From NCBI RefSeq assembly GCF_056712565.1, contig NZ_CM160072.1: 64,000 nucleotides of DNA; one strand, 5' to 3'. The first letter of the stretch is position 1. Every line of letters begins with the position of its first letter. The position numbers were made by a program. This document shows, one piece after another, positions 40,201 through 43,200 of the stretch.

Positions 40201-43200
40201 TTCCCTCACAGATGTCAGTACGCCAGCACGCTGTACAGGCTGTACAGCGTGCCTCCCAATCCTGCAGCCCAGAACAGTAGAAATATTTTGGCTCCTACAC
40301 TGTAGCGAGTCCGTATGCGCCGCAGTGGGTGGTAGTAACAACGCTGCTGTGTCATAACAATCCTGGTCTTTTTTTAGATATATTTTTTCTTTGTCCGGAA
40401 AGTACTTTTCCGGAAATGGCGTCAGAATTTATTGATTCACCAACGGCAACTTTCTCTGGATAAAGGATTCCGGATACCATGTTCTGCACATACTGAGTGA
40501 GTCGATGAGCGGAATGTTGTCCGATATATTTTGCATGTAGCCGTATATTCCGTTTCACTCTGCTGTCACCGCATCCCGTATAGAGCAGCCTGAAATCGCT
40601 CAGTGTTCCCAGTCCAAGTTTCATTAAAGCCCGTGTGGCAATCGCATGCAGGGTCTTTGAACTGCGTTGTTCATAACGGGCAATCTCACTGAAACTCATG
40701 CCCTGCATCAGAATCTTAAGCACGCTCAACTCCCGTGCAGTCAGGAGCCAGAAATCGCTCATATCGCCGGGCAAAGGACGTAGTAACCAGCGGATAATTT
40801 GATTCTGATAACGACTCGCTGTCAGCATGGTGCCGATGCGTGGGAAGCCGTTATACAGACTTGCAGCAGGAGCATTATCGAACCAGTCGGAGTCACCGGT
40901 CAGGCAGACCTGCCATTGCCCGGCATCACTCCGCAAACGGGCGAGACAAGCCAGAAGAACCAACTCCCCCGAAGGAAGCGAAGGGATATCAGCTAACAGG
41001 TAGCCACAGGAGGTCTTTAAAACGAATTCAACCTCTGTAGTGACGTTGCTGTACACCCGCACGATATACCTGTCCGTTGGGATGAGAGACTCCAGTGCCA
41101 GCCTGGTGAACTGACAGGCACTGATAATAACCAGAGGCTTCTTCATTCAGACTCGTCCACGCCATTGCTACAAAACCTGACATTTTGATTCAAAATGTCA
41201 GGTTTGGTTTAATAGCCTGAATATTTAATTTTCTTGGAATATAAATCTGATTTGTTTGATTTTTATTGTTTTTAATTTTGTATTATTTAACAATATGGGC
41301 GAAAGTTAATCACTGGTATGACCTTTGTGATTAATCATTTCAAATCATGGGGTTATTTTACTTTAGCTAGAAATATCAACATGTTATGTGTTTTATTTAA
41401 TTGAATGGGCTGTTTTTTTATGGAAGAATTGAGGAAAACGTAGGAATCTGACATTTTGAATCAGAAGGTACTGTTTTAACGAGGCTTTTTTTTCCACACC
41501 CCTTTAAAACGAGCAGCATTACTGGCTGTGTATCTGACAGTATGCTGAATATTTCGATGACCCAGGTAATCCTGAAGTAGTCGGGTATCGACACCATTGT
41601 CAGCCAGAGCAAAACCACAGGCATGACGTAACATATGAGGATGTGCTTTTACAGCTAATCCTGCACGTTTTCCAGCCTCACGAATGATAGAAAAAAAATG
41701 TTGTCTGCTGATAGGGCGGCGTTTCCGGGAGAGAAAAAGCCAGTCTCCTTCAACTCCGTTTTCAATTAACTTCCTCTGCTTAAGCCACAACTTGATCAAA
41801 TTATATTCATCAGGAAGAAGAGGATGTGTTGTCGAGAAACCATTTTTAATACGCCGAATATTAAGTTGTTTTCCAGATGCATCAATATCGGATAAACGTA
41901 AATCAAGAAGTTCACTGGCCCTAAAACCGTGAATGAAAGCCATCATAATCAGACAGCGATTTCTTTCAGGAAAGGACATGCTCTGGGCTGCATCCATCAG
42001 CCTGTAGACTTCATCCTGTGTGAGATATTTTCTCGTCATACGCCACCGTGTACAGTTGTAAAAAAAAGAGAGGCACACCCAGATAAGTATGCCTGCAATC
42101 AGAACGTTATCGATGTAATCTCATTATCTCATTAATAAGATTTTTTGAATAGTAGTTCTACGCAACAGATTAAATATGAACTATTTATTGTGCAGCTTTT
42201 CTACAAGTCATTTTTAATGCGTGTTTTTATCTACTATAATGTGAAAAAAATAAATATTAAAACTATGAGTGACAGGTCGTGTGGGATGTGTATTACGTCT
42301 AATGCTTTAGTAATTTTTTATTATTTCTGAGATATTTAACATCATTTCCTGTGAGATTGTCTTGTTGTGTATCTAATTGATTTTAATTTTGTTTTTTTTG
42401 ATGCATAAATTTGGATGATAGAAAGTAAGATTAGCTTAATATCAATGATATGAATTTATAAATACATATTGTTGCAAGGTGTTCTTTACTTTTTTGGTCG
42501 TTAGTAAATCATTGTTAATGGGTTCTGTTCATAAATTAAAAATATTCATTTAAATGATTTTTACTTTTTGTATATCTCAATTTGTTTATTTTGCATTCAT
42601 TTGATGGAGAGTATTCCAACACTTTTTATTTTTCGCAAAAAACTTATTAACAACTTTTTATTATCAATTGAAAATTAATGTAAACTAAAATGTTAGCGAA
42701 GCGATAATCTTGTGCTAAAAAATATTTAAGCATGATGATTAATTAAAGAAGAGTAAAAATAAATCGCTGCTAATAAATTATACGAACCGTGTTTAAAGCT
42801 CCATGTGGTTTTGGTCTGACTTATTTTTGTACTCGTTACAAGAACCCTTTTCGTACATGCTAACCGTGAGCGGGAATGAACAGGTAACCATAGCCAGGAA
42901 CATTAGCGGCGTAATTCTTAAGCTGAGTGGTATTTCATCTGTAGTTTATCTGTGTATGCATAGCACCTTCATCAGCCAGATTGAGCAAGTCAGCTTAGAA
43001 TTTGCTGGTGAGATTGTCACGATGAAGCATGAGAGTTACCTCAGTGTTTTATATAAGGATTCGGTCCTCATAGTAGAACGGTAACTCTCAATCTGATAGG
43101 TTCCTGAGTCAGTTCACATCACGACTCATTTTTTTCGCTCTCACCGGCATCCCATTTGCCACAAAATATCTTGCCGTGCTCCTCGGCAACGCATCCTTCC

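What the first reader, a model, noticed from the sequence alone, without database searches (positions are those of the whole stretch)
41173..41461. Candidate phase-variable invertible DNA switch between the Fim-type recombinase and the LuxR regulator
A ~240-bp AT-rich segment (41206-41447) is bounded by inverted repeats with a 12-bp exact core: tcaaaatgtcag at 41190-41201 and ctgacattttga at 41448-41459. The left boundary is itself a perfect 16-bp-armed palindrome (41173-41205). The element starts about 15 bp past the recombinase stop and ends 27 bp upstream of the first LuxR regulator, which is followed on the same strand by a second regulator and the autotransporter. This mirrors fimE–fimS–fimA, where a Fim-type recombinase flips a promoter segment flanked by short inverted repeats. 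Inversion here would be expected to switch the regulators, and through them the adhesin, ON or OFF. Whether this exact element has been described cannot be judged from sequence alone.
Basis: partly seen in the sequence, partly recalled or inferred. Interest (0 to 1): 0.85.

Follow-up and report, generated by a model that had tools for sequence, protein, structure and literature searches.

The report
Known hyxS invertible promoter switch

Summary
The exact inverted repeat is 16 bp (41186-41201 / 41448-41463), not 12, and the hyxR-side boundary is a perfect palindrome with 16-nt arms (41173-41205). The locus is E. coli PAI-X: ipbA (=fimX) – switch – hyxR – hyxA – hyxB/upaB. It differs from UTI89, where hyxS was characterised, by 2 bases in 2.6 kb.

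The published hyxS has 16-bp repeats, is flipped only by FimX and controls hyxR.

Among 5,426 complete E. coli genomes, 1,897 carry the locus:
- 1,777 have the window's orientation.
- 16 have exactly the predicted flipped form, on at least 3 haplotype backgrounds, two of them with flanks identical or nearly identical to unflipped strains.
- 95 have lost the switch by a precise 271-bp deletion between direct copies of the site.

Two points remain open. Which orientation is ON cannot be read from the sequence, although the window's is probably OFF. HyxA shows no detectable regulator domain.

The deletion alleles are the only possibly new point. They are recurrent (at least 5 backgrounds) and their junctions carry either T or A at the site centre. 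That fits occasional recombinase-mediated self-excision made possible by the palindromic site.

The parts
41476..42039 (-). ipbA (= fimX = hbiF), a Fim-family tyrosine-type DNA invertase of 187 aa. The open frame continues upstream to a GTG at 42078.
   Evidence: NCBIfam NF007370 'tyrosine-type DNA invertase', 251.7 bits against a cut-off of 221. RefSeq annotation of the identical genome. Catalytic motifs align with XerA 5hxy.
41447..41473 (.). Recombinase-proximal recombination site: inner arm TCTGACATTTTGA, centre A41460, outer arm TCAGAAGGTACTG. It contains the 16-bp exact inverted repeat at 41448-41463.
   Evidence: The outer arm stays in place and the inner arm moves in flipped genomes. 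The proximal arm and the TGATTCAAAA motif are shared with the Salmonella STM0716 switch.
41202..41447 (.). Invertible interior of hyxS: 246 bp between the exact repeats, 26% G+C. The literature reports that it carries the hyxR promoter.
   Evidence: Present in reverse orientation in 16 complete genomes. Single copy per genome. G+C. The promoter itself was not identifiable by sequence.
41173..41205 (.). hyxR-proximal recombination site: a perfect palindrome of 16-nt arms around T41189. It contains the inverted copy of the 16-mer (41186-41201) and an overlapping direct copy (41177-41192, 15/16).
   Evidence: The direct copy is the left end-point of the 271-bp deletion alleles. As RNA it forms a -23 kcal/mol hairpin followed by UUUUGU in the hyxR leader.
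40352..41146 (-). hyxR, a LuxR-family regulator of 264 aa and the gene directly controlled by the switch.
   Evidence: Pfam GerE at residues 135-181, E 3.9e-6. RefSeq name. Literature.
39437..40198 (-). hyxA, 253 aa, function unknown, with no detectable domain.
   Evidence: No Pfam or NCBIfam hit. Homologues follow the invertase in the Salmonella T1 locus (38% identity) and in a second E. coli cassette (45%).
37098..39395 (-). hyxB (= upaB), an outer-membrane autotransporter adhesin.
   Evidence: NCBIfam TIGR01414 autotransporter barrel, E 4e-69. RefSeq annotation. UpaB synonym.
37002..37020 (-). Terminator-like hairpin just downstream of hyxB, the possible end of a hyxRAB transcript.
   Evidence: Consensus scan only.

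Best explanation
[quoted passage not shown] The tyrosine recombinase IpbA/FimX is encoded immediately upstream. It binds two ~27-33-bp sites, each with two inverted arms around a short centre. It exchanges strands within the shared 16-bp repeat TGATTCAAAATGTCAG and so inverts the ~250-bp AT-rich segment between them.

In one orientation a promoter inside the segment reads into hyxR, and probably on into hyxA and hyxB. In the other orientation it reads away. The result is heritable, reversible ON/OFF heterogeneity.

Shown here:
- the anatomy of the sites;
- the recombinase family;
- both orientations in nature, with junctions exactly at the repeats;
- recurrence of the flip on near-identical backgrounds.

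Taken from the literature:
- dependence on FimX;
- promoter activity;
- phenotypes (nitrosative stress and macrophage survival, O-antigen chain length and serum resistance, reversible phage resistance).

Inferred:
- The window is in the majority orientation, which is probably OFF.
- The crossover region lies around the site centre (about 41186-41195 / 41454-41463).
For: - RefSeq annotation of 1,897 genomes names the flanking genes ipbA ('also known as HbiF and FimX') and hyxR.
- The window differs from UTI89, the strain in which hyxS was characterised, at 2 positions in 2,642 bp.
- The exact repeat is 16 bp, matching the published 16-bp hyxS repeats (PMC6083910).
- IpbA scores above the curated cut-off for tyrosine-type DNA invertase and keeps the catalytic motifs.
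- A synthetic flipped query is matched end to end by 10 genomes. Six more, whose ipbA is cut by IS66, match it up to that break. 1,777 genomes match the window's orientation.
- Alignments show unchanged outer flanks and swapped inner flanks.
- Flipped APEC O18 differs by 1 base in ~1.87 kb of flanks from unflipped UTI89. Flipped YF-1 differs by 0 from unflipped H3.
- FimX overexpression produces inversion at hyxS in UTI89 and CFT073, and no other Fim recombinase does (PMC6458436).
- Inversion of this promoter region downstream of ipbA gives reversible phage resistance (bioRxiv 10.64898/2026.05.13.724931; PMC12361893).
- The orthologous Salmonella STM0716 switch has experimentally shown ON and OFF states (PMC11294581).
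Against: - No convincing sigma-70 promoter can be found in the interior on either strand. The best PWM scores are about 7.0, against a mean best score of 8.6 in shuffles. The tool scan found 1 hit against 1.9 expected.
- The promoter, and hence which orientation is ON, therefore rests on literature I could not read in the original (PMC3809820 is not held).
- The only weak consensus match (41309>41282, minus strand) points toward hyxR in the present orientation. That sits awkwardly with the inference that this orientation is OFF.
- Co-regulation of hyxA and hyxB is not directly shown in the papers I read.
Confidence: 0.95

Rival explanations
1. The repeats are only a structural or transcriptional feature, for example a bidirectional hairpin terminator or leader hairpin between ipbA and hyxR. 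The segment between them does not invert.
For: The left palindrome folds as RNA into a -23 kcal/mol hairpin (z -3.5) followed by UUUUGU, 27 nt before the hyxR start. It could well have such a secondary role.
Against: Sixteen genomes carry the exact inverted configuration with break-points at the repeats. Some have flanks identical or nearly identical to unflipped strains. Experimental inversion is published.
Confidence: 0.02
2. The ~271-bp segment is a small mobile element (MITE-like, with terminal inverted repeats). Its presence/absence polymorphism reflects insertion and excision by a transposase, not a recombinase switch.
For: There is presence/absence polymorphism with precise junctions in 95 genomes. 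The segment has terminal inverted repeats.
Against: The interior is single-copy: median 1 and at most 2 places per genome across 1,801 genomes. Where annotated, the match sits next to ipbA, and there is no second copy in the window. There is no target-site duplication. The empty allele keeps one hybrid site made of the two outer arms, which is what site-specific resolution leaves behind. Inverted alleles would not be produced by transposition.
Confidence: 0.02
3. The 271-bp deletion alleles arise by replication slippage or RecA-mediated recombination between the 12-16-bp direct repeats, independently of IpbA.
For: Direct repeats of 12 exact bp (15/16 overall) 271 bp apart are a classic slippage substrate. 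The A-junction (26 genomes) is what a crossover in the 12-bp exact stretch would give.
Against: The T-junction needs a crossover inside the last 3 bp (TCA), to the right of the single mismatch. Yet it is the commoner form (69 genomes) and occurs on at least 2 unrelated backgrounds. A staggered recombinase cut on both sides of the central base explains both junction types through a heteroduplex. Genome counts are not event counts, so this does not settle it.
Confidence: 0.4

Closest known systems
hyxS, the FimX/IpbA-inverted hyxR promoter switch of E. coli PAI-X (Bateman & Seed 2012, Mol Microbiol 83:908; cited in PMC6083910 and PMC6458436)
   Same: It is the same locus. It has the same flanking genes, the same 16-bp inverted repeats, and 2 differences in 2.6 kb from UTI89.
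   Different: Nothing of substance differs. RefSeq records carry no feature for the switch itself. That is why it looks unannotated.
Salmonella enterica T1-antigen switch flipped by STM0716 (PMC11294581)
   Same: The recombinase is 72% identical. A switch of similar size follows directly after the recombinase stop. It shares the central motif TGATTCAAAA and a similar proximal outer arm. A HyxA homologue lies downstream (38% identity). One orientation strongly dominates in deposited genomes.
   Different: The exact repeat is only 10 bp. The interior is not detectably homologous. The cargo is a polysaccharide biosynthesis cluster rather than hyxR and an autotransporter. No full-length HyxR-like gene is present in the fetched loci, and the 111-aa ORF next to the switch gave no match to HyxR.
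ipuS switch of UPEC CFT073 (ipuA/ipuB – ipuS – ipuR – upaE; PMC6083910)
   Same: It has the same logic and cargo type: a Fim-type recombinase, a ~260-bp invertible promoter, a LuxR-type regulator and an autotransporter. FimX also acts there.
   Different: It has 7-bp repeats, two recombinases, one repeat lying inside the ipuA coding sequence, and a different island. It can be flipped by four recombinases, whereas hyxS is flipped only by FimX.
fimS, the type 1 fimbrial switch (FimB/FimE)
   Same: It uses the same recombinase family and has a promoter on a 314-bp invertible segment next to the recombinase genes.
   Different: It has 9-bp repeats of unrelated sequence. The published alignment of fimS and hyxS sites is poor. 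It directly drives a structural operon rather than a regulator.
Symmetric-spacer lox/FRT sites (established knowledge: a palindromic spacer removes directionality, so both inversion and excision occur)
   Same: The hyxR-side site is a perfect palindrome whose only asymmetry is the central base. Both inversion and excision products are seen in genomes.
   Different: This is an analogy only. The cleavage positions of IpbA are not known.

Membership tests
hyxS switch of PAI-X | Lies between ipbA/fimX and hyxR, in the island inserted between ykgH and betA | tested here: met
   RefSeq annotation of the 100%-identical genome and of UTI89.
hyxS switch of PAI-X | 16-bp inverted repeats | tested here: met
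   Exact 16-mer at 41186-41201 and 41448-41463. The published value is 16 bp.
hyxS switch of PAI-X | Sequence identity with the experimentally studied UTI89 element | tested here: met
   One difference in the switch (41249) and 2 in the 2,642-bp hyxA-ipbA block.
hyxS switch of PAI-X | Inversion catalysed by FimX/IpbA | not testable with these tools
   Literature only: PMC6458436 and PMC6083910. Indirect support: the lineage with IS66-truncated ipbA is uniformly in one orientation in the 6 genomes seen.
Fim-type tyrosine-recombinase promoter inversion switches | Adjacent FimB/FimE-family tyrosine invertase with catalytic residues | tested here: met
   NF007370 251.7 bits > 221, NF007371 232.9 bits > 222. 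The R, H-x-x-R, H and Y motifs align to XerA.
Fim-type tyrosine-recombinase promoter inversion switches | Short segment (200-400 bp) bounded by inverted repeats, found in both orientations | tested here: met
   278 bp including the repeats. 1,777 genomes in one orientation and 16 in the other, with break-points at the repeats.
Fim-type tyrosine-recombinase promoter inversion switches | Promoter inside the segment giving orientation-dependent expression | tested here: inconclusive
   Consensus and PWM scans do not exceed shuffles on either strand. The literature asserts it.
MITE / small transposable element | Multiple dispersed copies with target-site duplications | tested here: not met
   Single copy per genome. 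No duplication at the junctions.

The most novel reading that the evidence does not exclude
Because the hyxR-side site is a perfect palindrome, it can pair with the other site in either alignment. IpbA would then occasionally resolve the switch instead of inverting it, excising 271 bp irreversibly. This would explain why about 5% of locus carriers (95 of 1,897 genomes, on at least 5 haplotype backgrounds) are switchless. It would also explain why the junctions carry either T (69 genomes) or A (26 genomes) at the site centre: this is the heteroduplex footprint of an overlap region that spans the one asymmetric base. Read this way, the data would map the IpbA crossover region to about 41186-41195. 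They would also describe a built-in failure mode of a phase switch. I did not find this described in the papers I could read, but the primary hyxS and PAI-X papers were not available.
Probability: 0.45. Interest if true: 0.35.

Novelty: already known. Interest (0 to 1): 0.15.

Why it matters
As a discovery it does not matter. hyxS has been known since 2012. It is linked to nitrosative-stress tolerance and macrophage survival, to O-antigen chain length and serum resistance, and (2025-26) to reversible phage resistance.

Three things are of modest use:
1. The switch is not annotated as a feature in RefSeq, so sequence-only scans will keep rediscovering it.
2. There is now a genome-wide census: 99% in one orientation, 0.9% flipped, 5% deleted.
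3. The recurrent precise deletion suggests where the recombinase cuts. It also suggests that this switch can be lost irreversibly, which matters when PAI-X or fimX is used as a marker or when interpreting hyx-dependent phage resistance.

Tried and rejected
1. **Primary papers.** PMC3809820 and its DOI, PMC5084626 and PMC3749053 are not held. The published promoter position and the ON/OFF definition could not be checked.

2. **ON/OFF by homology.** I tried to transfer the state from the Salmonella switch, whose states are experimentally defined. The interiors are not homologous, with local alignment scores of 20-22 against a shuffle mean of 22.6. Rejected.

3. **ON/OFF from promoter prediction.** Both the tool scan and my own -35/-10 PWM scan stay below shuffle expectations on both strands. 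Inconclusive.

4. **Genome-contig scan with IpbA.** It returned only one close Escherichia locus. Salmonella and the paralogous cassette had to be reached through the protein database instead.

5. **Chance repeat.** Rejected: 0.07 expected against 3 observed.

6. **MITE-like mobile element.** Rejected: single copy.

7. **HyxA as a diverged paralogue of HyxR.** Rejected: BLASTP E 0.29.

8. **First haplotype comparison.** It was distorted by IS elements in the right flank of two loci. I redid it with IS-free flanks.

9. **PMC12282228 on hyxB mutations under gentamicin.** Unrelated to the switch.

Full report
**Observation**

The region was read directly and scanned for repeats. All genes here are on the minus strand. 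The recombinase ORF runs 42078/42039 > 41476 and the regulator ORF runs 41146 > 40352.

The exact inverted repeat is longer: TGATTCAAAATGTCAG at 41186-41201 and its reverse complement at 41448-41463, 16 bp, bounded by mismatches on both sides.
- With mismatches the arms extend to 33 nt at 82% complementarity.
- The hyxR-side boundary (41173-41205) is a perfect palindrome of two 16-nt arms around T41189. The recombinase-side site is a weaker palindrome around A41460.
- The 16-mer occurs three times in 64 kb at <=2 mismatches, all at this switch, against 0.07 expected.
- The interior is 26% G+C against 48% for the window.

**Identity**

- NCBIfam places the 187/200-aa protein in the 'tyrosine-type DNA invertase' subfamilies above their curated cut-offs. 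Its catalytic motifs align with XerA.
- The 264-aa protein has a LuxR-type GerE helix-turn-helix.
- The 776-aa ORF (765 aa as annotated in RefSeq) is an autotransporter.
- A megablast of 40900-41800 against 5,426 complete E. coli genomes hits 1,897 of them. RefSeq annotates the flanking genes as ipbA ('also known as HbiF and FimX') and hyxR, followed by hyxA and hyxB, between ykgH and betA. This is pathogenicity island PAI-X (PMC3789825).
- The window differs from UTI89 at two positions in the 2,642-bp hyxA-ipbA block, one of them in the switch.

**What is already published**

- PMC6083910 states that hyxS lies proximal to fimX in CFT073 and UTI89, has 16-bp inverted repeats, regulates the LuxR-type regulator hyxR, and is inverted only by FimX.
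- PMC6458436 detected inversion at hyxS genome-wide by sequencing. It occurred only when FimX was overexpressed, in both UTI89 and CFT073.
- PMC3789825 links hyxR and hyxA to O-antigen chain length and serum resistance.
[quoted passage not shown] - PMC11294581 describes the orthologous Salmonella switch (STM0716, 72% identical to FimX), with ON and OFF states demonstrated.

The primary paper (Bateman & Seed 2012) was not available to me.

I built the predicted flipped sequence and searched with it.

- Ten genomes match it end to end.
- Six more match it up to a point inside ipbA, where an IS66 element has truncated the gene.
- 1,777 genomes match the window's orientation.

Alignment of three flipped genomes with the window shows unchanged outer flanks and exchanged inner flanks, with break-points inside the 16-bp repeat.

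The flips are recent and recurrent. Over about 1.87 kb of flanking sequence, flipped APEC O18 differs by 1 base from unflipped UTI89. Flipped YF-1 differs by 0 from unflipped H3 and ESBL15. The IS66 lineage is a third background.

The interior is single-copy, which rules out a dispersed mobile element.

Two hits covered 72% of the query but spanned only 630 bp. Alignment showed a clean 271-bp deletion. It joins the left half of the palindrome to the outer arm of the other site.

The cause is structural. Because the hyxR-side site is a palindrome, it also contains a direct copy of the repeat (41177-41192, 15/16 identical to 41448-41463).

Junction-specific queries, designed so that full-length alleles cannot match them over >=80% of their length, gave these counts:
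- 69 genomes with T at the site centre;
- 26 genomes with A at the site centre.

Together with the other classes this accounts for 1,888 of 1,898 matching records.

The deletion sits on at least five haplotype backgrounds. Two of them are identical in flanks to full-length strains: FDAARGOS_1303 = UTI89, and clone D i14 = ATCC 25922. ipbA is annotated as intact in all seven deletion genomes inspected.

**Inference on the crossover region**

- The central 7 bp of the two sites, TGATTCA and TGAATCA, are reverse complements of each other. They are therefore identical in the inverted alignment and differ only at the middle base in the direct alignment.
- A recombinase cutting on both sides of that base would give inversion efficiently. 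It would give excision rarely, leaving a heteroduplex that segregates into T and A junctions.
- Simple slippage in the 12-bp exact stretch predicts only the A junction. The T junction needs a crossover within 3 bp, yet it is the commoner form and occurs on at least two backgrounds.
- The part of the repeat shared with Salmonella (TGATTCAAAA) and with a paralogous E. coli cassette (TGGTTCAAAATGTCAGAT) also covers this centre.

This is suggestive, not proven. I give it about 0.45.

**What remains open**

Which orientation is ON. The Salmonella interior is not homologous, so its experimentally defined state cannot be transferred. Promoter scans are uninformative on both strands.

The window's orientation is shared by UTI89 and by 99% of assemblies. 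The following points bear on its state:
- Inversion at hyxS was detected in the FimX-overexpressing samples and not in the others analysed.
- CFT073 recombinase-null derivatives were locked OFF at hyxS.
- The inverted form is enriched only under phage pressure and reverts without it.

I therefore infer, without proof, that the window shows the OFF state.

HyxA is not demonstrably a regulator. Control of HyxB through the switch is plausible:
- The gaps are 153 and 41 bp.
- There is no terminator-like site in the hyxR-hyxA or hyxA-hyxB gaps.
- There is a terminator-like hairpin after hyxB.
- The genes are called an operon.

I did not see it demonstrated.

**Verdict**

Interest is low. The recurrent self-deletion is a small, possibly undescribed addition.

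Noticed in passing
window 41177-41463; L001, L013-L018: About 5% of genomes with the locus (69 with a T junction, 26 with an A junction) have lost exactly 271 bp between direct copies of the recombination site. This has happened on at least 5 haplotype backgrounds, with ipbA still annotated as intact. 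In these alleles hyxR starts 58 bp after the ipbA stop.
   Followed up: yes
L003 3260-3700 (strain RM14721; also hits H51-H56): This is a lineage with several isolates from dogs. ipbA is truncated by an IS66 element and the switch sits in the minority (flipped) orientation, so it is a naturally locked allele. Its hyxR-side outer arm carries a C-to-T change. That change makes the flipped site a perfect palindrome with 15-nt arms again, which could be quasipalindrome correction or selection for the hairpin.
   Followed up: partly
L010, L011, L012 (about 4000-8567): Some E. coli carry a second, paralogous cassette at another chromosomal site, next to genes for an acetolactate decarboxylase and a TPP-dependent enzyme. 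It has an invertase 81% identical to IpbA and 18-bp repeats TGGTTCAAAATGTCAGAT flanking a 200- or 241-bp segment. These are followed by a HyxR-like protein (51% identity), a HyxA-like protein (45%) and a large autotransporter. I did not establish whether it has been described.
   Followed up: partly
window 39437-40198; L006 4364-5104; L010 5700-6446: HyxA homologues with no Pfam domain follow the invertase and switch in all three systems examined: PAI-X, the Salmonella T1 locus, and the paralogous E. coli cassette. This conserved partner of unknown function may belong to the switch module rather than to the cargo.
   Followed up: partly
window 41135-41215, minus strand: On the hyxR sense strand the palindromic site forms a 15-bp RNA hairpin (-23 kcal/mol, z -3.5) followed by UUUUGU, 27 nt upstream of the hyxR ATG. 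It could terminate or attenuate read-through from ipbA and be part of the hyxR leader. The deletion alleles destroy it.
   Followed up: partly
L002 about 2030-2125 (APEC O18): In this flipped genome a 1-nt insertion in the run near the ipbA 3' end (TTTTTTTTCCC instead of CC) coincides with ipbA being annotated 48 nt longer, reading into the switch.
   Followed up: no
window 42071-42094, minus strand: A strong terminator-like hairpin with a T-run (10 pairs, CTCTTTTTTT tail) lies just upstream of the annotated ipbA ATG (42039) and overlaps the alternative GTG start (42078). This favours the shorter 187-aa protein and insulation of ipbA from betA transcription.
   Followed up: no
window 41206-41444: RefSeq records carry no annotated feature over the switch interior ('none' under every match), although the element has been published since 2012.
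   Followed up: no
L001 4023-5251; L020 1-800; hit H44: IS elements repeatedly hit the island in different strains. An IS3-family element lies between ipbA and betA. Another IS3-family element truncates hyxA in O145:H28, where ipbA is also annotated shorter (522 nt). An IS26-family element interrupts the region in strain MSB2_1A.
   Followed up: no
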